From positions 1-12,598 of the forward strand of contig JAAZEM010000207.1 of NCBI GenBank assembly GCA_012512265.1: a stretch of DNA of 12,598 nucleotides. The letters run 5' to 3'. Both the position numbers and the translations under genes were made by a program. The notes under the pieces are model-generated. The model did no database searches and had not been told where the DNA came from. It worked only from the letters and a program-made list of their open reading frames with translations. This document shows, piece by piece, positions 1,530-12,485 of this stretch (the stretch's first letter is position 1; each line of letters starts with the position of its first letter). The stretch comes from Armatimonadota bacterium. GTDB taxonomy: Bacteria > Armatimonadota > JAAZEB01.

Positions 1530-2855
1530 ATGTTCATGACGTCGCGTCTTCACATTGCGCCGGGCCTGCGGGGCCGGCGGAGTTCGGAACCCGCAGCGGG
1601 CCATCGCCGCGCTTATCACAAGCTCCCGAAGCGCCGAAGGTGGACCTGGATAACCGCGTTGGCGTGCGCTCTGGCCATTGTTCTGCCAGGTGCCGCGCGC
1701 GCCGAACAGACGCCAGCCGAGTTGCTGGCCGATCTGGAAGCGGAAGGTTTTGAGAATCTGAGCGTCGAGAAGATCTCGGACGGCCAGGGCGTGGTGATCA
1801 CGTTCGAGAACCGCCGCTACCGGTGGGAGGTGGTTGGTCTGGGGGTTGCCCTGGGCCTTGCGACTGCCCACCAGGAGGGGCGGGTGATCCTGGTGCCGAT
1901 GCACACGGGGGTGCCGATGGGGCGCATCGAGGTGGATGCCTCTGATTACCGCGCCTTCCTCCGTGGCGAGCTGAGCGAGGAAGAGATCTTCTCGCGCATG
2001 GTGATATCGAGTGAGGCCGGGCCATACCAGCCGGGGCCGCACAGCAGCTCCTTCGGGAAGGTGGATCTCACCTTCGCGCCGGGCGTGCGGATTAACCTCG
2101 TAACGCCAGCGCCTCCGGGGGTCTTCCGGGGCGGGGAGCTGCGCCTGAGCCCTGGGGTTTACTCGAACTTGTGGCGCGGGCTCTCGTTCGATGCGACCTA
2201 CGTCTACCCGCTGAGTAGCAGCGAGCCGGTGGTTGGCCGCGCCACCGGAAGTATCAACGCGCGCGTGGGCACCGAGGGCTTTTTCCAGGCGCAGGCCGGA
2301 CGGCTCTCCGAAGGCCTGGATGGGTTTGCGGCCGCATTGGTGTACCCCAGCAAAGATGGGCGGCACCTGCTCGGGGCATCCATCGCGCAGGCGGCCTACC
2401 CGGGCTGGGATCGCACCGGTAGCTATCAGGCGTTTTGGACGTGGCGGCCGACGCGCTATGATGCCACGGCAACCTTTGCCTGGGGGAAGTTCCTGGCAGG
2501 CGACACGGGCTATTCGCTCACCCTGATCAGCGGCTTCAGGGAGAGCAACATCGAGTTCAGTTACACGAAGACATCGCTGAGCGAAGTTCTTGCCGCCGGG
2601 TTTACCGTGCCCCTGGGATGGGAGCGCCAGCCACGGCCCGCTCCAGTACGGTTTCGCTTCCGGAACGCGTTCCGGTTTATGTATTATGACGAGAACCCGC
2701 GTCCGCTGGACGGCGGGCTCTATGTTCCTTTCATGGATGGTTACCAGACGGCAATCCGCCGCTGGAACAGGGCCTATCTGCGCACTTACGCACACGAGTT
2801 GCGCGAGGCCGCTAAAAGATGGTTGCCTGCGGAGGTAACGGAATCGAGAGAGTAA
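1530..2855 (+). CDS. Secreted 441-aa hypothetical protein (signal peptide ...WTWITALACALAIVLPGAARA|EQ). It may be an outer-membrane or envelope beta-rich protein; a weak recollection of a YjbH/DUF940-like protein is unverified.
   Basis: High GC3 in this frame, whereas the antisense frame translates as Arg/Pro-rich junk. An N-terminal signal peptide is present. The sequence is rich in Tyr/Phe/Trp/Gly with alternating patterns (NIEFSYTKT, ATYVYPLSS). Confidence 0.75.
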   Translation: MFMTSRLHIAPGLRGRRSSEPAAGHRRAYHKLPKRRRWTWITALACALAIVLPGAARAEQTPAELLADLEAEGFENLSVEKISDGQGVVITFENRRYRWEVVGLGVALGLATAHQEGRVILVPMHTGVPMGRIEVDASDYRAFLRGELSEEEIFSRMVISSEAGPYQPGPHSSSFGKVDLTFAPGVRINLVTPAPPGVFRGGELRLSPGVYSNLWRGLSFDATYVYPLSSSEPVVGRATGSINARVGTEGFFQAQAGRLSEGLDGFAAALVYPSKDGRHLLGASIAQAAYPGWDRTGSYQAFWTWRPTRYDATATFAWGKFLAGDTGYSLTLISGFRESNIEFSYTKTSLSEVLAAGFTVPLGWERQPRPAPVRFRFRNAFRFMYYDENPRPLDGGLYVPFMDGYQTAIRRWNRAYLRTYAHELREAAKRWLPAEVTESRE

Positions 2856-2973: not shown

Positions 2974-4410
2974 ATGGACTTCGCACGTTTTCGACCCAGA
3001 ACGGCAGTGCTCCTGACGTTGGGTGCCCTTGCCCTGGCCGCGTTGCTGGCTGGTGGCTGTGCGGCGCCTGACGACGACGAGCGCGCTCGGTTCGCAGTTG
3101 TCACCGGTGTGGTCCTGGATCAGAACAACAATCCGGTCCCCGGTGCCGTTGTCTCGGTGGTGCCCCCGCTTGAGGCGCCAGTGGCTGGCGGCCCGCTTGG
3201 CACCCGCAACTTCTTCGGGAGCCCCGGCCCGTTCGTGACCGGTCCGGATGGCCGCTTCTTCATCCCCGGCGTCAAGCTCGCCCAGTCGGCTTCCGATGTG
3301 GTGGTCCTGAACCTTCAGGCAACCGCTCCGGGCTTCCTCCCCGCTTTCGTCGTGGCGCCTGCGCCGGAGACGGGCACGATTCTTGGCCGCCCGTTTGTCG
3401 CCGGTGTTGAGACGCGCGACATCGTCATCACCCAGGAGACGGTGAGCAGCCTCGTCGCTCGCCTTGTTCCCCCTGGCCAGACGCAGACCGTTGGCTCCGG
3501 TGGAATCCAGAACCTCACCGTGCCCGTGGTTGATGCCGCAACGGGTGGCACGACGGGCAACGCGACCGTCAACATTCCCGCCGGTGCGATCTCCGGACAG
3601 CCGGTGCAGCTGGCTGTGACGGGTGTGACGGGCACCTCCCTGGCCTCCGTGGCTGCGCCCGCGCCGAGCCAGGTTCCGACGGTGGGCAGCCCGGCGGCTC
3701 CGGCGGCCAACGCCGCTCTCGGTTCGGGCACCGTTCCTGCGACGCTTCCGCTCGCGGGTATCGACATTCGCGCTCTGAACGCTTCGGTGAGCTTCACCGG
3801 CCCCAAGCCGACGGTTACGGTTCCGCTTCCCGCGGGCCTGATCGTCACGGGCCTCAGCTCGCGCCAGATTCCTGCGGACGCGCTGGCCGTGGTCTTCTTC
3901 AACGAGCAGCGTGGCGCATGGGAGCTGGTTCCCGGTGCGATCGTCAACGTGACCTCCACTCAGGTCACCTTCGCCATCGGTGAGTCGACGGGCACCTACG
4001 CCCTGATCGTCCCGGCCACCTGGACGCTGCCGGCGCCGGTGCAGACGGGCGAGAACGTCGTGTTCCCGCCGATCGCTGGCTTCAACGGCTACGTCTCGAT
4101 CGGCCGCATCAGCCAGTCGCTGGACTTCCCGACCGTGAGCGAACCGGTGGAGACGCTTCTCCTCAGCGCTTACGCGGCGCTCACCGGTGAAGTGCCCAAC
4201 GGGCCCTTCGTCGTCCAGGTGCCGCCCGGAACCACGACGGGCCGCTCGGCCAGCGAGGTGACGGCCACCGTGAGCGTGAACTTCGGAACCTTCGGCACCG
4301 TTCAGGGAACCCGGACGACCTGGCAGGTCGAGGATGTCGAGGTGCCTGAGGCGCCCGAGATCCCGCCGCACCTGCAGGGCCACGTCCAGGGTGGTGGCGT
4401 GGGCGGATAA
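2974..4410 (+). CDS. Putative lipoprotein, Thr/Gly/Val/Pro-rich, with an N-terminal carboxypeptidase-regulatory-like (CarboxypepD_reg-like) stretch. The alternative start is ATG 2962; the ORF-track GTG at 2887 is unlikely.
   Basis: The N-terminus MDFARFRPRTAVLLTLGALALAALLAGGCAAPDDDE has an n-region, an h-region and a Cys in a lipobox-like position. FAVVTGVVLDQNNNPVPGAVVSVV resembles the carboxypeptidase regulatory-like fold. The rest is long low-complexity T/G/V/P/A sequence predicted beta-rich. The gene sits 118 bp downstream of the 1530 gene on the same strand, so co-transcription is likely. Confidence 0.7.
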   Translation: MDFARFRPRTAVLLTLGALALAALLAGGCAAPDDDERARFAVVTGVVLDQNNNPVPGAVVSVVPPLEAPVAGGPLGTRNFFGSPGPFVTGPDGRFFIPGVKLAQSASDVVVLNLQATAPGFLPAFVVAPAPETGTILGRPFVAGVETRDIVITQETVSSLVARLVPPGQTQTVGSGGIQNLTVPVVDAATGGTTGNATVNIPAGAISGQPVQLAVTGVTGTSLASVAAPAPSQVPTVGSPAAPAANAALGSGTVPATLPLAGIDIRALNASVSFTGPKPTVTVPLPAGLIVTGLSSRQIPADALAVVFFNEQRGAWELVPGAIVNVTSTQVTFAIGESTGTYALIVPATWTLPAPVQTGENVVFPPIAGFNGYVSIGRISQSLDFPTVSEPVETLLLSAYAALTGEVPNGPFVVQVPPGTTTGRSASEVTATVSVNFGTFGTVQGTRTTWQVEDVEVPEAPEIPPHLQGHVQGGGVGG

Positions 4411-7132: not shown

Positions 7133-8080
7133 CTACAGCACCTGGCGCTGGATGCCCCCGAAAAGCTGGCGCAGGCGATGGAGCCGGTCAGGATCGAGAT
7201 AGGGGGGATCCACGGCGCGCAGATTCTCGCGCAGCCGTTCCGGACTGCGGGTGCCAGCGCAGCAGACGCTCACATCATGGGCCAGCACGAAGCGCAGCGC
7301 TGCCTCCGGGATGGAGTAGGGCTTCAGGAAATCGAAGAGGCCCGGGTCCCGATAGATCGGGTCGTCGGGTAGAGTGCCCTTCTCAATGTGCCGGCGGACG
7401 CACTCCAGCGCCGCGGGCACGCTCACCAGGCCAGAGACCTTCGAGGCCTGGTTGAGCGGCATCATCACCACGGTGCCCACGCCGTGTTGAGCGCAGAGAG
7501 GGAGCACGGAATCCGCTGCCGTCTGCAACAGGAAGTTCAAAGTGAGCATCACCACGTCAAACGCACCCGTGGGCACGGCGCGTTGCAGGACTTGATGGGT
7601 GCCATCCCCCTCCGAGAGCTCGCTGATCCCGATGAAGCGCACCTTCCCCTGATCCCGCAGTTTCACCATCGCGTCATAGCAGCCATCGCTCATGAAGCGG
7701 TCAAAGCTCTCGATGGTGCGCATGCCGTGGCCCAACAGAATATCGAGCCGGTCGCGGCGCAGGCGGCGCAGGCTCTCCTCCACGGAGGCGGTCAGCGCCT
7801 GGGGGGTGCCGATGTACGCGGCCCCAACGGCATACGTCTCGTAGGGGCAGTACTTGGTTTCTACCAGCACATCGTCATGGCCTTGCAGCGCCTCGCCCAG
7901 CGCGCGCTCGCTCTCGCCGCCATCATAGCCCGACGCGGTGTCGATGAAGTTGATGCCGGAGTCGATCGCGGCGCGCACCGTCGCAATGAACTGCGCCCGC
8001 TCTTGACGGGCGCCCCGGGCCGCGCCGTAACCCAACTCGGAAACCTGCAGGCCGGTCCGGCCGAGTGTCCGGTAACGCAT
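7133..8080 (-). CDS. Aldo/keto reductase family oxidoreductase
   Basis: The N-terminus MRYRTLGRTGLQVSELGYGA is typical of the AKR family. INFIDTASGYDGGESE (Asp/Tyr catalytic region) is present. The Shine-Dalgarno AAGGAG sits 6 nt upstream of the ATG, and the protein is 315 aa. Confidence 0.88.
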   Translation of the reverse strand: MRYRTLGRTGLQVSELGYGAARGARQERAQFIATVRAAIDSGINFIDTASGYDGGESERALGEALQGHDDVLVETKYCPYETYAVGAAYIGTPQALTASVEESLRRLRRDRLDILLGHGMRTIESFDRFMSDGCYDAMVKLRDQGKVRFIGISELSEGDGTHQVLQRAVPTGAFDVVMLTLNFLLQTAADSVLPLCAQHGVGTVVMMPLNQASKVSGLVSVPAALECVRRHIEKGTLPDDPIYRDPGLFDFLKPYSIPEAALRFVLAHDVSVCCAGTRSPERLRENLRAVDPPYLDPDRLHRLRQLFGGIQRQVL

Positions 8081-8118
8081 CTTCTTCTCCTTGCTTGCTC
8101 CCCGCGGGGGGCATGAAG

Positions 8119-9108
8119 CTACAGCGTGATGACCGCCTCCTCGCGCGCGGACCGGCGGATGGCGTCCACGATCCGCTGGCCGGCGAGCCCGTCCTCCATG
8201 GTGGCGTAGGGACGGTGGCCCTCTCGAATGGCGCGCACGAACTCATCCACCGCGGCGGCATCGCCTGTGAGCGCCGGCTTCTCGACGGGGACGCGCTCCT
8301 CCTCTTTGCCCCGGGCGATTACGATGCAGGGTCCGTTCTCATCCTGGGCGGGCCACCCGCTCGCCTCGGTGCCGACCACGTACTGGCGTTGCGGGAGGAA
8401 GGGCACCGTGAAGTAGCCGAGGCTTCCCATCACGCCTCCCTCATGCGTCGTCACGGCAGAGATCAGCTCTTCGTTCCAGGGATCCTCCCCCGTCGTCACC
8501 GTTCGGGCGTAGACGCTCTTCACCTCGCCCCCCATGAAGCGGAGCCACTCGCAGATGTGGACGCCGTCGTGAAGGATGAGCGAGCCCCAGGTCGCCGGGT
8601 CGAGCGTTGCCTTATGCCCCTTGCCCTGGCACAACAACCCGGAGATCTTGGGATGGGTGGCGCCGACGGCGAGGAGCCGGCCGAAAACACCCTGCTGCAC
8701 CATCTCGCGGAGCTTGCGATGCTGGGGCATGAGCCGCATGCTCAAATTGACCACGGTGGCCACGCCGGCCTCCCGACACGCCTGTGTCATCGCCTCGGCA
8801 TCCGCCACCGAGAGAGCGATCGGCTTCTCGCAGTAGACGTGGCAGCCCTGGCGGACCGCGGCGAGGGTGATCTCGGCGTGGACGTTGTTATCGGTGTTGA
8901 TGCAGACCGCATCCAGGCCCTCGGCGAGGAGGTCGGGGTAGTGGGTGAACCCAGGGGCGGTGATCCCCTGCCGGGCGCACTCCTCGAGGCGCTCGGGACG
9001 AATATCGCACACGCCAACCAGCTCTATATCCGGCCGCGCGGCAACGGCGCGCGCGTTGCAGATGCCGCGAGCGCCCACTCCGATGATCCCGAACCGAAGC
9101 CGTTCCAT
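8119..9108 (-). CDS. Gfo/Idh/MocA family NAD(P)-dependent oxidoreductase
   Basis: The N-terminal Rossmann motif is RFGIIGVGARG...VGVCD. The sequence then runs ...EKP into a C-terminal alpha/beta domain. The Shine-Dalgarno GAGGAG is 6 nt upstream. This is the first gene of an apparent three-gene minus-strand operon with the AKR and nth. Confidence 0.88.
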   Translation of the reverse strand: MERLRFGIIGVGARGICNARAVAARPDIELVGVCDIRPERLEECARQGITAPGFTHYPDLLAEGLDAVCINTDNNVHAEITLAAVRQGCHVYCEKPIALSVADAEAMTQACREAGVATVVNLSMRLMPQHRKLREMVQQGVFGRLLAVGATHPKISGLLCQGKGHKATLDPATWGSLILHDGVHICEWLRFMGGEVKSVYARTVTTGEDPWNEELISAVTTHEGGVMGSLGYFTVPFLPQRQYVVGTEASGWPAQDENGPCIVIARGKEEERVPVEKPALTGDAAAVDEFVRAIREGHRPYATMEDGLAGQRIVDAIRRSAREEAVITL

Positions 9109-9190: not shown

Positions 9191-9553
9191 GAAATGGCAA
9201 GCGGAGGGTATAGGCCATGACCGGGCGATGAACAGGCGCGCGGGCGCTGCATGCGCGCGACGCCGGCAAGCAAGGTCTCGAGTTCTTATCAGGCAGGCGT
9301 AACGCTCCGGCGTATTGGAGTGTGGAAAGGGCGCCAGCGCCCTTCTGCCAGCGTGTAAACCGGGGCGATAGCGTCGGGAGCGTGGGGGGGAGTCCGGAGT
9401 GGCATGGAGGATGCGGGTGGCTGGATGGATCTTCCTATCCCAAGCTCTCGCACGCGCGGGAGATGGCTTGTGACGCGGGCGGCTACCTTGGGAATGGATA
9501 GCCGCTGCGCCGCGTCCTGTCTGTCGGGGGCCTCGTGGAGGGAGGAGCGGGCA

Positions 9554-9862
9554 ATGCAGATCACAGAGACGCCGTGTCCGTGGTGTCATAAGGGCCGGGT
9601 GATCATCCATGCGGCCGACGAGCCGTGGATCGTCAAGGAAGACACCGGTGAGATTGGCCGGCGCGGTCCAAAGGGGCGCCCTGCGCGTTTCCGAACGTCA
9701 CCGGTCGATTGGTTCTCGTGCACCGAATGCGCGATGAACGGCACGGTCTCGTACCTGCGCATGCTGCTCAGCGGGGGGGTGCGGCGTTATCTGCAAGAGG
9801 CCGCACTGCGGCAGCGGGCCACAATCCGTCCCTGCGGTGGAGAGAGCGTTCGCCCGGATTGA
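9554..9862 (+). CDS. Small (102-aa) zinc-ribbon protein of unknown function, with CPWC ... CTEC motifs about 58 residues apart
   Basis: ATG 9554 is preceded by an 11-nt Shine-Dalgarno GGAGGGAGGAG (9537-9547) with a 6-nt spacer. GC3 is high in this frame. Two CxxC pairs are present (TPCPWCHKG and FSCTECAMNG). The ORF-track start at 9404 adds 50 non-protein-like residues and is rejected. Confidence 0.5.
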   Translation: MQITETPCPWCHKGRVIIHAADEPWIVKEDTGEIGRRGPKGRPARFRTSPVDWFSCTECAMNGTVSYLRMLLSGGVRRYLQEAALRQRATIRPCGGESVRPD

Positions 9863-9893
9863 GCCACTGGCCACTGGGGCAGGAAGTTGGGGA

Positions 9894-9925
9894 GGGCGGT
9901 CGTGAGACGCCTCGCACGACCGCCC
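9894..9925. terminator. Bidirectional hairpin between the convergent zinc-ribbon and encapsulin genes: GGGCGGTCGTG-agacgcctcg-CACGACCGCCC (11-bp stem)
   Basis: Perfect 11-nt inverted repeat centred in the 109-bp gap between the two stop codons (9862 and 9972). There is no strong U-tract on either side. Confidence 0.45.
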
Positions 9926-9971
9926 GGTCAGTCTAAGCGCGCCCGAGAAGGGATCGCTTTAGGCGGCCTGA

Positions 9972-10826
9972 CTACTCCGCGCGCTCGATGGTGCAGATTG
10001 CTCCCGGCCGCTTGATGCGCAGCGCCAGGACCTCGAAGACGCGGAAGCGGTGGTTCATGGCGCTCGTCTCCAGGAACGCCGTGATCAGATCCTGCGCGAC
10101 CGCGAGGTCCATATTCTCGGAACCCACCGAGAGGACGACTGCCACGTTGTTCCCCAGCACGGGCGTCTGGTAGACGCCGGCGGTGGCGATCTTGCGCACC
10201 TGCTCCAGCTCCAGAACGCCGGTGCCGTCGTGGATGCGGTTCAGGCCCGCATAGAGCGCCGGGCTCACCACCAGCGCGAAGGGGCCATAGAACTCGTTGG
10301 ACACCAGCATCTGCGTGGCCTCCACGACGTCTCGGAAGGCATTCCCTGTCTCTGCCCAGTCGCGCATGGCGATGGCGTTGCGCCCCGGCGCGTTCGTCAG
10401 GCCGGCGTACTCGTGCCCATTGGCTTTGTGCCCGTTGAAGATCAGGTTATCCTCGGTTCGGGCGCAGAAAGCGGCGGACGCCGCGGCAGGGCTCACATCC
10501 AACGGCAGGTGAAGCTGAGAGGCCGTCTCCAGGTCTCGCCAGTGAATCTGGAAGTCCTTATAGATCATCGGCAAGGGGACGTGATCGCGTTTGCTGGCCA
10601 TCACCGTTCCCGCCTCGTCTTCGCCCATCAGACTGATCGCTCCCTGCTCTCCCCCGGTGAGCTGATCGACGTGAATGGTCTGCACGCCCAGGCCGAACGG
10701 TCCAAAGAGCGGGATCACGCGGCGCCCCACCAGATTGCGCCGTGCCACGTCCATCACTGTAACATCGATCTGATCCCACTGTTCCTCGCTCAAGGGTACT
10801 TGATCCCGCATGAGGTAGTCCGCCAT
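9972..10826 (-). CDS. Encapsulin nanocompartment shell protein, family 1 (Linocin_M18 / HK97 fold), 284 aa
   Basis: The N-terminus MADYLMRDQVPLSEEQWDQIDVTVMDVARRNLVGRRVIPLFGPFGLG aligns with the T. maritima and M. tuberculosis encapsulins (F.PLTEKQWQEID....L.GRKFVDVEGPYG). Later blocks GPFALVVSPALY and SENMDLAVAQDLITAFLETSAMNHRFRVFEVLALRIKRP match the GGDFxLxLGQDLxIGY...ETFTFxV region. The start was moved to the ATG at 10826 because GGGAGGGAG lies 4 nt upstream; the ORF-track start at 10841 overlaps that Shine-Dalgarno site. Confidence 0.88.
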   Translation of the reverse strand: MADYLMRDQVPLSEEQWDQIDVTVMDVARRNLVGRRVIPLFGPFGLGVQTIHVDQLTGGEQGAISLMGEDEAGTVMASKRDHVPLPMIYKDFQIHWRDLETASQLHLPLDVSPAAASAAFCARTEDNLIFNGHKANGHEYAGLTNAPGRNAIAMRDWAETGNAFRDVVEATQMLVSNEFYGPFALVVSPALYAGLNRIHDGTGVLELEQVRKIATAGVYQTPVLGNNVAVVLSVGSENMDLAVAQDLITAFLETSAMNHRFRVFEVLALRIKRPGAICTIERAE

Positions 10827-10911
10827 ATCGCTCCCTCCCATGGTAGCTGCTCTTCCGCCCGCATGCCGGCCCCACGCGCTGGCCTAGCGTCCGCAGGGCG
10901 GGGGTATCAGT

Positions 10912-10941
10912 AATATATACCCGAAACCGGCGCGAGGTAAA
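10912..10941 (-). promoter_or_regulatory. Candidate encapsulin promoter: TTTACC (complement of 10936-10941), 18 nt, TATATT (complement of 10912-10917), inside an AT-rich near-palindrome GGGTATcagtaatatATACCC (10902-10922)
   Basis: The minus strand reads TTTACCtcgcgccggtttcgggtaTATATTactGATACCcccgccc, with a 4/6 -35 and a 5/6 -10. The AT-rich island stands out from the GC-rich surroundings. Confidence 0.35.
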
Positions 10942-11129
10942 CATCCGGGTGTTGCCTTACCCGAGCGGCGCGATGCCGCCAGATCGGGGAGGAATCGCTG
11001 CCGGAGAGACGGAACTGCCGACTATGCCGGGGAGCCGCGAGAGTGCGCCGGCGCATCCGAAGTTGCTTGCTGGCCTGGGGCGGTCTACCGCGGCTGCTCC
11101 AAGCTCGCGGCGTTGAGGAGGGCGAGGAG

Positions 11130-12485
11130 ATGCCTGATCCCACGAATGTGCTCTTCATCTTGAGCGACGACCAGGGCGTTTGGGCCGCCGGGTGCTATGG
11201 CAACCCAGAGATCCGCACGCCGAATATCGACCGGCTGGCTGCCGGAGGCGTCCGCTTCGAGAACTTCTTCTGCGCCACGCCGGTCTGCTCGCCCGCCAGG
11301 GCGACGCTGCTGACGGGGCGCCTCCCCTCGCAACACGGCGTGCATGACTGGATCCGCGCCGGCAACGTTGGCCCGGACGCGATCCGCTACCTGGAAGGCG
11401 AGCTGACTTACACCGATATCCTTGCGCGCGCCGGATGGAGCTGCGGCCTCAGCGGCAAATGGCACCTCGGCGATAGCCAGATCCCCCAGCATGGCTTTAC
11501 CGACTGGTTTGCCCATCAGTTCGGTGGCGGCGACTACCACAACGCCCCCATGGTGCGCAACGGGCAGTTGATCCAGGCGCCCGGCTACGTCACCGACGTG
11601 ATCACGGACGAGGCGCTGGCGCTTCTCGAACGTTACGCCGACGCGGGCGCCCCCTTCTACCTCAGTGTTCATTATACCGCGCCGCATAGCCCCTGGACCG
11701 GCCACCCACAGGAGATCGTCGACTCGTATGCCGATTGTCCGTTCAACTCGTGCCCGCAAGAGGAGCGGCACCCTTGGGCAATTAGCCTGACGGACGAATG
11801 CCTGGGCAACCGCGCGATGCTCCAGGGCTACTTCGCGGCGGTCACGGCGATGGACATGGGGATTGGCCGGCTGCTTGATCGACTAGAAGGGCTGGGCCTG
11901 CGAGAGCGCACGCTGGTCGTCTTCATGAGCGATAACGGCTTCTCCGCCGGGCACCACGGCTTTTGGGGTAAGGGGAACGGCACGGTTCCGCGCAACATGT
12001 ACGAGAACTCCATTCGCGTGCCGGCGATCCTCAGCCACCCCGGCGTGATTCCGGCAGGGCGAGTGGAGCGGGGATTGGTCAGCGCCTACGACTTCATGCC
12101 CACGCTGCTCGACTACTTGGGGCTTCCGGTGCCGGGCGACGGCAATCTGCCAGGGCGTTCCTTTGCCCCCCTCCTGCGCGGCGAGGAGATGCCCGAGCGC
12201 GAGAGTGTCGTCATCTACGACGAGTATGGCCCGGTGCGCATGGTGCGAACCCGCGAGTGGAAGTACGTCTACCGCCACGCCTATGGCCCCCACGAGCTCT
12301 ACGACCTGGTGAACGACCCCGACGAGCGCGTGAACCGGGCGGAGGATCCGGCGATGGCGGCGCGAATCCGGGAGTTGAAAGGCCTGATGGAGGAGTGGTT
12401 CACTCGCTACGCCAATCCGTGCCGCGATGGTTTGCGGGAAGATGGCGCGGCGATGGGCCAGACGCGCTTCCTGCCTCGGGCATGA
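11130..12485 (+). CDS. Cys-type sulfatase (formylglycine-dependent arylsulfatase family), apparently cytoplasmic with no signal peptide
   Basis: NVLFILSDDQG is followed by the sulfatase signature CATPVCSPARATLLTGR (the C-x-P-x-R formylglycine motif) and GKWHLG. ATG 11130 has GAGGAGGG 7 nt upstream. The ORF-track GTG at 11043 adds an Arg-rich extension that is not a convincing Sec or Tat signal. Confidence 0.88.
   Translation: MPDPTNVLFILSDDQGVWAAGCYGNPEIRTPNIDRLAAGGVRFENFFCATPVCSPARATLLTGRLPSQHGVHDWIRAGNVGPDAIRYLEGELTYTDILARAGWSCGLSGKWHLGDSQIPQHGFTDWFAHQFGGGDYHNAPMVRNGQLIQAPGYVTDVITDEALALLERYADAGAPFYLSVHYTAPHSPWTGHPQEIVDSYADCPFNSCPQEERHPWAISLTDECLGNRAMLQGYFAAVTAMDMGIGRLLDRLEGLGLRERTLVVFMSDNGFSAGHHGFWGKGNGTVPRNMYENSIRVPAILSHPGVIPAGRVERGLVSAYDFMPTLLDYLGLPVPGDGNLPGRSFAPLLRGEEMPERESVVIYDEYGPVRMVRTREWKYVYRHAYGPHELYDLVNDPDERVNRAEDPAMAARIRELKGLMEEWFTRYANPCRDGLREDGAAMGQTRFLPRA

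What the first reader, a model, noticed from the sequence alone, without database searches (positions are those of the whole stretch)
9972..10826. Family-1 encapsulin shell gene with no recognisable cargo gene in its neighbourhood
The 284-aa protein is a clear Linocin_M18/HK97-fold encapsulin. Family-1 shells are normally encoded directly downstream of their cargo (DyP peroxidase, ferritin-like Flp/IMEF, hemerythrin, rubrerythrin), which carries a C-terminal targeting peptide of the GSLxIGSLK type. Here the gene has its own Shine-Dalgarno site and a candidate promoter with an AT-rich operator-like palindrome. No co-oriented gene lies upstream: the 300-bp upstream region is shared with a divergent sulfatase. 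None of the neighbouring proteins (zinc-ribbon, sulfatase, Gfo/Idh/MocA, AKR) ends in a recognisable targeting peptide. Either the cargo is encoded elsewhere in the genome, or it is a new cargo type with a non-canonical targeting signal.
Basis: partly seen in the sequence, partly recalled or inferred. Interest (0 to 1): 0.7.

Follow-up and report, generated by a model that had tools for sequence, protein, structure and literature searches.

The report
Encapsulin shell that lost its cargo gene
This is a real protein-nanocompartment (encapsulin) shell gene in an uncultured Armatimonadota bacterium whose usual partner, a double ferritin-like iron enzyme encoded just upstream in all of its closest relatives, is missing from the locus, yet the shell gene is intact and still under selection; shells without an adjacent cargo gene are already on record, so this is a modest curiosity, not a new kind of system.

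Summary
Window 9972-10826 (-) encodes a 284-aa family 1 encapsulin shell: PF04454 E 1.9e-70; NCBIfam encap_f1 283 bits against a cut-off of 100; 290 bits to M. xanthus EncA. No gene from 10 kb upstream to 20 kb downstream carries a targeting peptide.

Comparison explains the origin. Every related shell with enough upstream contig (62-69% identical, Armatimonadota clade) lies directly downstream of a 308-334-aa double ferritin-like protein (DFLP, the "Bfr-type" cargo). These DFLPs end in GWTVGSLLGRKQE, a canonical targeting peptide. Two relatives share the window's downstream gene order. So this lineage lost or displaced its cargo gene, and a sulfatase/heparinase/glycosidase cluster now abuts the shell.

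The shell has not decayed:
- dN/dS is 0.20 between two cargo-less alleles.
- 68 of 69 family-conserved columns are kept.
- The three tested peptide-contact positions match those of cargo-bearing relatives.
- It has its own promoter-like site and ribosome-binding site.

The most likely reading is that cargo is encoded elsewhere in the genome. I could not test this. A 102-aa zinc-ribbon gene, convergent downstream, stays with the shell across the clade and is the only unexplained partner.

Shells with no assignable cargo, and distal cargo genes, are documented. Verdict: a new member of a known kind, of low-to-moderate interest.

The parts
9972..10826 (-). Family 1 encapsulin shell gene, 284 aa, probably a T=3-type shell like M. 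xanthus EncA
   Evidence: PF04454 E 1.9e-70. NF041155 283 bits against cut-off 100. EncA 4PT2 E 1.1e-85 over the full length. Identical protein on 22 contigs. dN/dS 0.20 against the L012 allele. 68 of 69 conserved columns kept.
10831..10839 (-). Shine-Dalgarno sequence GGGAGGGAG, 4 nt upstream of the ATG at 10826
   Evidence: Read directly from the sequence.
10912..10941 (-). Sigma-70-like promoter candidate TTTACC-18-TATATT, about 86 nt upstream of the start codon. It differs from the TGGTAGAAT promoter that precedes the cargo gene in relatives.
   Evidence: Only match in 9400-11250, against 0.3 expected. Relatives' promoters. Function is inferred, not shown.
10898..10933 (.). AT-rich imperfect palindrome (core GGGTAT-N9-ATACCC) overlapping the -10 element. 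Possible operator.
   Evidence: I1, 71% complementary. By eye, a similar inverted repeat (TGGGAAT..ATACCCA) is present in the diverged L012 allele. Function untested.
9894..9925 (.). GC-rich hairpin (14-nt arms, 93% complementary, 4-nt loop) between the convergent shell and zinc-ribbon genes. Candidate bidirectional terminator.
   Evidence: I3. There is no T-run, so the terminator scan did not call it.
9554..9862 (+). 102-aa zinc-ribbon protein (CPWC...CTEC) of unknown function, convergent with the shell gene. It is the only neighbour that stays with the shell across the clade.
   Evidence: Present convergent and downstream in L013, L014, L016-L020 and L111. The family has only 9 clusters in 5.8 billion proteins and 13 hits in 1.84 billion representatives. 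No Pfam or NCBIfam match above cut-off. AF2 model pLDDT 58.6.
11130..12485 (+). Divergent cytoplasmic Cys-type sulfatase (451 aa), the first gene of a sulfatase/heparinase II-III/GH cluster that occupies the place where relatives have the cargo gene. Context only, not part of the system.
   Evidence: PF00884 E 7.9e-52. Extended context in L001-L003 and L012. Absent next to the shell in all relatives.
7133..9108 (-). Gfo/Idh/MocA oxidoreductase (8119-9108) and aldo-keto reductase (7133-8080). They are inserted between the zinc-ribbon gene and nth relative to L014 and L019. Context only.
   Evidence: Pfam. Synteny comparison with L014 and L019, where the zinc-ribbon gene is followed directly by nth.

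Best explanation
The gene encodes a genuine, functional family 1 encapsulin shell. It descends from a two-gene operon of a double ferritin-like protein (DFLP) followed by the shell.

In this Armatimonadota lineage a rearrangement removed the DFLP cargo gene from its position directly upstream. A polysaccharide-degradation cluster (sulfatase, heparinase II/III, GH) now abuts the shell gene in divergent orientation. A second insertion placed Gfo/Idh/MocA and AKR genes downstream.

The shell gene gained or kept its own promoter and ribosome-binding site, and it has stayed under purifying selection in the cargo-less arrangement. The most likely mechanism is therefore that the shell still assembles (probably T=3, EncA-like) and loads one or more proteins that carry a C-terminal xTVGSL-type peptide and are encoded elsewhere in the genome. 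In this clade the system's role is iron oxidation, iron storage or oxidative-stress protection.

Shown: the family assignment; the absence of cargo from -10 kb to +20 kb; the ancestral operon in relatives; the selective constraint.
Inferred: shell assembly; promoter activity; the existence and identity of a distal cargo.
For: Family.

No cargo nearby:
- Gene content of L001-L003 and L105-L108.
- No motif at any protein end.
- No tblastn remnant of DFLP.

Ancestral operon:
- Every related locus that extends upstream of the shell has a 308-334-aa tandem ferritin-like gene directly upstream and co-oriented. These are L013, L014, L016-L021, L102 and L104, with shells 62-69% identical. Every one of these genes whose sequence I read ends in WTVGSL[LF]G.
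- Both ferritin domains were confirmed.
- L014 and L019 share the window's order shell - zinc-ribbon gene - nth - GAF-GGDEF - YtxH - ... - YjbH-like.

Constraint after the loss:
- The L012 allele has the same cargo-less, sulfatase-adjacent layout. It differs by 29 synonymous and 20 non-synonymous changes, dN/dS 0.20. The probability of so few non-synonymous changes under neutrality is 2e-7.
- The neighbouring sulfatase gives 0.12.
- The shell keeps 68 of 69 columns that are at least 90% conserved in 118 homologues. Cargo-bearing relatives deviate at 0-9 columns.
- At the EncA positions that contact the peptide (D39, D214, Y217; PMC11126975) the window has P39, A216 and Y219, as do five of its six cargo-bearing clade relatives.

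Own expression signals.

Precedent for distal cargo: in T. minervae the DFLP and the encapsulin are at separate loci (bioRxiv 10.1101/2025.09.13.676036).
Against: No distal cargo was found.
- In a search of 5.8 billion proteins with a relative's DFLP, six of the seven clade-level hits (at least 53% identity) were placed next to another organism's shell; P0123 was not looked up and only shares its contig length with shell P0008. None of those looked up came from samples that hold this species.
- A scan of JGI metagenomes, a collection that also holds the sample (3300010338) with this species' 114-kb contig, gave no hit above 47% identity.

Both searches are incomplete. Absence is therefore only weak evidence. 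It does leave open that the ancestral cargo is gone from the genome.

Promoter activity and shell assembly are untested.
Confidence: 0.5

Rival explanations
1. The cargo has been lost from the genome altogether. The shell persists as an empty compartment. Either it is a young relic, or it is kept for a cargo-independent role, for example direct binding of metal or nucleic acid by the shell.
For: No clade-type DFLP attributable to this species turned up in the protein search or in the metagenome scan. This is despite the species being well sampled: the shell is on 22 contigs, and a neighbouring gene is listed in 78 blocks of the contig index. A cargo-independent DNA-condensing activity has been reported in vitro for M. 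xanthus EncA (PMC9321382, title and abstract only).
Against: dN/dS of 0.20 across 49 substitutions in the cargo-less state argues against a decaying relic. The tested peptide-contact positions and the N-terminal helix are unchanged relative to cargo-bearing relatives, which would be unnecessary for an empty shell. The searches that failed to find cargo are demonstrably incomplete. Other cargo classes were not searched at all.
Confidence: 0.27
2. The conserved zinc-ribbon protein is itself a shell client or a functional partner. It could be a secondary cargo with a non-canonical signal, an electron-transfer or metal-handling accessory, or a regulator. It would be what the shell works with in this lineage.
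For: It is the only neighbour retained with the shell, in five different downstream contexts: Gfo here, nth in L014 and L019, an NHL protein in L013, a Na/Ca exchanger in L016, and a membrane protein in L111. The family is tiny and nearly clade-restricted. Four Cys, one His and two Trp are invariant or nearly invariant across distant members. Firmicute IMEF systems have a small ferredoxin as secondary cargo with an N-terminal signal (PMC8346489).
Against: It is transcribed convergently, not in an operon with the shell. It has no [LF]x[VI]Gxx[LI] motif at either end. The one similar stretch, GTVSYLR, lacks the invariant Gly and begins a predicted long helix. Its C-terminal tail is not conserved in this species. 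In relatives it coexists with a canonical cargo, so it need not be a cargo at all. The structural model is of low confidence and the fold search was empty.
Confidence: 0.1
3. One of the adjacent enzymes (sulfatase, Gfo/Idh/MocA, AKR, heparinase) is a new cargo type with a cryptic signal.
For: Adjacency only. The sulfatase shares the 303-bp control region with the shell gene, and the sulfatase-shell adjacency is kept in the L012 allele.
Against: None of these genes accompanies the shell in any relative. None has a targeting-peptide-like end. The sulfatase is part of a separate divergent polysaccharide-degradation cluster. The shell's tested peptide-contact positions are those of shells that bind WTVGSLLGR.
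Confidence: 0.03
4. The gene is a prophage or HK97 capsid remnant and not an encapsulin.
For: Weak PHROG hits to major head proteins (38 bits, E 1e-9) and a below-threshold PF09950 match.
Against: The encap_f1 equivalog score is 283 bits. The protein aligns over its full length to EncA, including the N-terminal helix. No phage genes lie within 30 kb. The closest relatives sit in cargo-shell operons with targeting peptides.
Confidence: 0.01

Closest known systems
DFLP ('Bfr-type', two four-helix-bundle) family 1 encapsulin systems, e.g. Caldanaerovirga acetigignens CaDFLP-encapsulin (bioRxiv 10.1101/2025.09.13.676036); listed as Bfr cargo in Andreas & Giessen 2021 (PMC8346489)
   Same: All of the nearest shells with known upstream context (62-69% identity) are encoded directly downstream of a DFLP with a C-terminal xTVGSL peptide. 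The window's shell belongs to that shell clade and keeps its tested peptide-contact residues.
   Different: The DFLP gene is absent from this locus and from at least 30 kb around it. The shell has its own promoter-like site. Armatimonadota are not among the phyla listed for this cargo type in PMC8346489.
Thermocrinis minervae TmDFLP and encapsulin at separate loci (same preprint); also M. xanthus EncC/EncD and M. tuberculosis BfrB/FolB, which are encoded away from the shell gene (my own knowledge for the gene positions; BfrB is mentioned in PMC8346489)
   Same: A family 1 shell whose cargo is not adjacent. Loading relies on a portable C-terminal peptide, so linkage is dispensable.
   Different: In those cases the distal cargo is known. 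Here none has been identified. M. xanthus and M. tuberculosis also still have one adjacent primary cargo.
Myxococcus xanthus EncA (PDB 4PT2, 7S5K, 8VJO), a T=3 iron-storage shell
   Same: It is the best solved-structure match (E 1.1e-85, full length). Both belong to ferritin-like cargo systems with an xTVGSL peptide.
   Different: The two Asp residues that bind the peptide's Arg in EncA (D39, D214) are Pro and Ala here, and also in five of the six clade relatives aligned (the sixth has Ser at 39). This fits the clade's different peptide tail (SLLGRKQE, not SLRR).
[quoted passage not shown]
   Same: A family 1 shell in a neighbourhood without a recognisable cargo.
   Different: Here the ancestral cargo type can be named from close relatives, and selective constraint after the loss can be measured.

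Membership tests
Family 1 (classical) encapsulin shell | Match to the Linocin_M18 / encap_f1 profile above the curated threshold | tested here: met
   PF04454 237.5 bits against 24.3. NF041155 equivalog 283.4 bits against 100.
Family 1 (classical) encapsulin shell | HK97-type protomer with an N-terminal helix (in place of an N-arm) that forms part of the peptide-binding pocket | tested here: inconclusive
   The sequence aligns from residue 1 to EncA residues 1-281, including the N-helix. The N-helix is almost invariant in the clade. I did not model the fold itself.
Family 1 (classical) encapsulin shell | Primary cargo with a C-terminal targeting peptide encoded directly upstream | tested here: not met
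   No such gene from -10 kb to +20 kb. Met in every related locus that extends upstream of the shell. This is an operon convention and not a property of the protein, and exceptions are documented (PMC8346489).
Family 1 (classical) encapsulin shell | Self-assembly into a 60-, 180- or 240-mer icosahedral shell that encloses cargo | not testable with these tools
   Needs expression followed by EM or mass photometry. A T=3-like shell is inferred only from the closest structure.
Family 1 (classical) encapsulin shell | Not part of a prophage | tested here: met
   No phage-like genes in about 30 kb. The neighbours tested have no PHROG hits and the shell scores only 38 bits to head proteins.
DFLP/Bfr-type encapsulin system | Shell groups with shells of DFLP operons | tested here: met
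   Every closest non-conspecific shell with known upstream context is DFLP-linked.
DFLP/Bfr-type encapsulin system | A DFLP with a targeting peptide is present in the same genome | tested here: inconclusive
   Not found at the locus, and not found by the protein search or the metagenome scan. Both searches were incomplete, and the genome itself could not be scanned.

The most novel reading that the evidence does not exclude
The shell is maintained by selection in a genome that no longer encodes any canonical targeting-peptide cargo. Two versions are possible. In one, the clade-specific zinc-ribbon protein is its real functional partner, as a new accessory or client class for ferritin-type encapsulins. 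In the other, the shell has a cargo-independent role. Either version would make this a natural example of an encapsulin repurposed after cargo loss.
Probability: 0.15. Interest if true: 0.6.

Novelty: new member of a known kind. Interest (0 to 1): 0.3.

Why it matters
Encapsulin function is read from the cargo, so a shell without one is uninterpretable on its own. Here the close relatives supply the answer. The shell comes from a double-ferritin (iron oxidation/storage) system, and the cargo gene was removed by a local rearrangement.

The case is a clean natural example of a cargo-shell operon being uncoupled while the shell stays under purifying selection. That supports the view that peptide-mediated loading makes genetic linkage dispensable.

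It also extends DFLP-type encapsulin systems to Armatimonadota. It flags a small zinc-ribbon family as a conserved, uncharacterised companion of these systems.

None of this changes what is known about how encapsulins work.

Tried and rejected
1. Remnant of the cargo gene in the 303-bp upstream region or anywhere in about 30 kb: tblastn with three relatives' DFLPs gave nothing below E = 1.

2. A simple deletion that kept the ancestral promoter: rejected. Relatives share TGGTAGAATGGG upstream of the DFLP gene, and the window has a different TTTACC/TATATT site.

3. Displaced DFLP in the same species:
- The protein search was followed by context look-ups of five of the seven closest DFLP clusters (P0124-P0127, plus P0129 from the next tier). 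Two more had been placed earlier (L014, L016-L018). Each of those seven sits beside another organism's shell. P0123 was never looked up.
- The result is inconclusive. One search also missed L013's known DFLP.

4. The GTDB genome scan for the source genome returned only Thermotalea (51% identity), so no reference genome could be scanned.

5. Hemerythrin cargo: a ScdA_N + hemerythrin (RIC) gene lies 13 kb downstream, but it has no targeting peptide.

6. TP-like GIALGGL in the in-frame continuation past the zinc-ribbon gene's stop codon (9863-10015 +): judged chance. It lies in the shell-zinc-ribbon intergenic spacer, within a stop-free frame that runs on antisense into the shell gene's 3' end, and there is no support for read-through.

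7. Zinc-ribbon structure: the AF2 model is of low confidence (pLDDT 58.6) and Foldseek against the PDB gave no hit below E = 4.

8. Rfam: no RNA family in the window.

9. Phage capsid: rejected.

Full report
**1. Observation**

The ORF at window 9972-10826 on the minus strand encodes 284 aa.
- It matches Pfam PF04454 (Linocin_M18) at E 1.9e-70.
- It matches the NCBIfam equivalog model NF041155, 'family 1 encapsulin nanocompartment shell protein', at 283 bits against a cut-off of 100.
- It aligns over its whole length to M. xanthus EncA (PDB 4PT2, E 1.1e-85).
- Similarity to phage head proteins is marginal (38 bits), and the neighbours tested have no phage-family hits.

- A GGGAGGGAG Shine-Dalgarno sequence lies 4 nt before the ATG.
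- The only sigma-70-like site in 9400-11250 is TTTACC-18-TATATT at 10941-10912 (-), against 0.3 expected by chance.
- It overlaps an AT-rich imperfect palindrome at 10898-10933.
- The 303-bp upstream region is shared with a divergent sulfatase that starts at 11130.

No neighbouring protein ends in a targeting-peptide-like motif.

**2. Is a cargo just outside the window?**

The identical shell protein occurs on 22 public contigs. Together, these extend the view to about 10 kb upstream and 20 kb downstream of the shell gene.
- Upstream, all divergent or unrelated: sulfatase, a CBM-heparinase II/III protein, an MGH1-like glycoside hydrolase, two small ORFs, BacA and an aminotransferase.
- Downstream: the zinc-ribbon gene, Gfo/Idh/MocA, AKR, endonuclease III, GAF-GGDEF, YtxH, two envelope-type proteins, a response regulator, AIRS and GATase genes, a RIC (ScdA_N + hemerythrin) protein, and a MEDS histidine kinase.

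None of these has a targeting peptide.

**3. What the relatives show**

Source names on the near-identical proteins place the organism in Armatimonadota.

The nearest non-conspecific shells are 62-69% identical (L013, L014, L016-L021, L102, L104). Every locus that extends upstream of the shell carries a co-oriented 308-334-aa gene directly upstream.
- That gene has two ferritin/rubrerythrin-like domains.
- Every one whose sequence I read ends in an Ala/Pro-rich linker followed by GWTVGSL[LF]GRKQE.
- This is the canonical family 1 targeting motif [LF]-x-[VI]-G-S-L.

The cargo class itself is known.
- It has been characterised as heme-binding, ferroxidase-active double ferritin-like proteins, DFLPs (bioRxiv 10.1101/2025.09.13.676036).

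L014 and L019 also share the window's downstream order: shell, zinc-ribbon gene, nth, GAF-GGDEF, YtxH, a large envelope protein and a YjbH-like gene.

Relative to that ancestral layout, the window's lineage has two changes.
- It lost the DFLP gene. A sulfatase/heparinase/GH cluster now lies there, in divergent orientation.
- It gained Gfo/Idh/MocA and AKR genes between the zinc-ribbon gene and nth.

No DFLP remnant is detectable. The ancestral promoter, TGGTAGAATGGG in five relatives, is not the one now in front of the shell.

**4. Is the orphaned shell decaying?**

It is not.

MAG contig L012 carries a second allele in the same cargo-less, sulfatase-adjacent arrangement.
- It differs from the window by 29 synonymous and 20 non-synonymous changes, giving dN/dS 0.20.
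- Under neutrality the probability of so few non-synonymous changes is 2e-7.
- The adjacent sulfatase gives 0.12.

The window's shell matches 68 of the 69 columns that are at least 90% conserved among 118 homologues. Cargo-bearing relatives deviate at 0-9 columns.

At the EncA positions reported to contact the peptide (D39, D214, Y217; PMC11126975), the window has P39, A216 and Y219. Five of the six cargo-bearing clade relatives aligned have the same three residues (the sixth has S39 and F219), and the N-terminal helix is almost invariant.

So the shell has been kept functional, with its tested peptide-contact positions unchanged, since the cargo gene left the locus.

**5. Where is the cargo?**

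I could not answer this.
- A search of 5.8 billion proteins with L014's DFLP returned seven clade-level clusters (at least 53% identity). Six were placed beside another organism's shell, and none of those came from samples that hold this species. The seventh, P0123, was not looked up and only shares its contig length with shell P0008. The next-best targeting-peptide-bearing hit, P0129, is also beside its own shell.
- A JGI metagenome scan gave nothing above 47% identity.
- Both searches are incomplete.
- The species' genome was not retrievable.

Other cargo classes could not be searched genome-wide.

The strong purifying selection and the conserved peptide-contact positions favour a distal cargo. 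I give this about 0.5. Precedents are T. minervae, M. xanthus EncC/EncD and M. tuberculosis BfrB. Complete cargo loss with an empty or repurposed shell remains a serious rival, at about 0.27.

**6. The zinc-ribbon gene (9554-9862, +)**

It is convergent with the shell gene. A GC-rich hairpin at 9894-9925 separates the two.

It is the only neighbour that stays with the shell in every clade locus long enough to show it, across five different flanking contexts.

The family is very small.
- 9 clusters in 5.8 billion proteins.
- 13 hits in 1.84 billion representatives.
- CPWC, His19, Trp25, Trp53 and WFSCxxC are invariant or nearly invariant.
- No curated family matches it above cut-off.

It has no targeting-peptide-like terminus. 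Its model is of low confidence and has no structural neighbours.

In relatives it coexists with the canonical cargo. It is therefore more likely an accessory or a regulator than 'the' cargo. I give any direct functional partnership about 0.1-0.15. It is still the most interesting loose end.

**7. Other neighbours**

The sulfatase, Gfo/Idh/MocA and AKR genes never accompany the shell in relatives. They belong to inserted blocks, so they are poor cargo candidates.

**8. Novelty and score**

Family 1 shells with no assignable cargo are documented: 90 of 2,383 in PMC8346489. Distal, peptide-tagged cargo is also documented, including DFLPs (the 2025 preprint). The cargo type missing here is a known one.

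What this case adds:
- a well-resolved natural example of operon uncoupling with measurable constraint on the orphaned shell;
- DFLP-type systems in Armatimonadota;
- a conserved zinc-ribbon companion of unknown function.

Verdict: a new member of a known kind, interest about 0.3.

Noticed in passing
window 9554-9862 (+); L013 6416-6727, L014 6148-6459, L016 9245-9559, L019 3436-3747, L111 748-1059: A 102-104-aa zinc-ribbon protein (CPWC...H...W...WFSCxxC) is always convergent and downstream of the clade's encapsulin genes. The whole family has only 13 hits in 1.84 billion representative proteins, and its function is unknown. In this species its C-terminal tail (TIRPCGGESVRPD) differs from the relatives' tail (SAYLREGDVALxxD).
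   Followed up: partly
window 10200-10999 and 11300-11899, compared with L012: The window and MAG contig L012 are almost identical in the heparinase and GH genes (dS 0.002-0.005). They diverge by about 10% in two islands: the 5' two-thirds of the shell gene plus its promoter, and the middle of the sulfatase gene. Between the islands the DNA is identical. This looks like mosaic recombination between strains. L012's sulfatase also lacks about 260 nt near its 3' end.
   Followed up: partly
L013 5147-5296; L016 7454-7618: In two relatives the spacer between the DFLP and shell genes holds short tandem repeats. L013 has GATTTCA units. L016 has CAGTGAC/CAGTAAT heptamer arrays that form a long inverted repeat. 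They might set the cargo-to-shell expression ratio.
   Followed up: no
L013 about 4150-4175; L014 about 4180-4200; L016, L019 and L021, upstream of the DFLP start: Five relatives share a nearly identical extended -10 element, TTT(G/A)TGGTAGAATGGG, upstream of the DFLP gene. The window's shell gene does not have it.
   Followed up: partly
window 11130-12485 and L001 3288-9679: A cytoplasmic Cys-type sulfatase (CSPAR motif, no signal peptide), a CBM4_9-heparinase II/III protein and an MGH1-like GH form a cluster for degrading sulfated polysaccharide. The cluster lies where relatives have the cargo gene.
   Followed up: no
L105 13854-14567 and 19034-20300 (13-20 kb downstream of the shell gene): A RIC-type di-iron protein (ScdA_N + hemerythrin) without a targeting peptide. 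Further on, a 460-aa protein with a DVTHAFRNLP (DxTHG-like) motif, reminiscent of CRISPR-associated proteins.
   Followed up: no
window 9863-10015 (+): The reading frame that continues past the zinc-ribbon gene's stop codon encodes GIALGGL, which resembles a targeting peptide. The motif lies in the intergenic spacer just before the shell gene's stop codon, and the frame then runs antisense into the shell gene's 3' end. I judged it a chance match.
   Followed up: partly
window 2974-4410 (+) and 1659-2855 (+): Two large envelope-type proteins with little or no family match: a 478-aa protein with a lipoprotein-like N-terminus, and a 398-aa protein weakly similar to YjbH. Both are syntenic with L014 and L019.
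   Followed up: no
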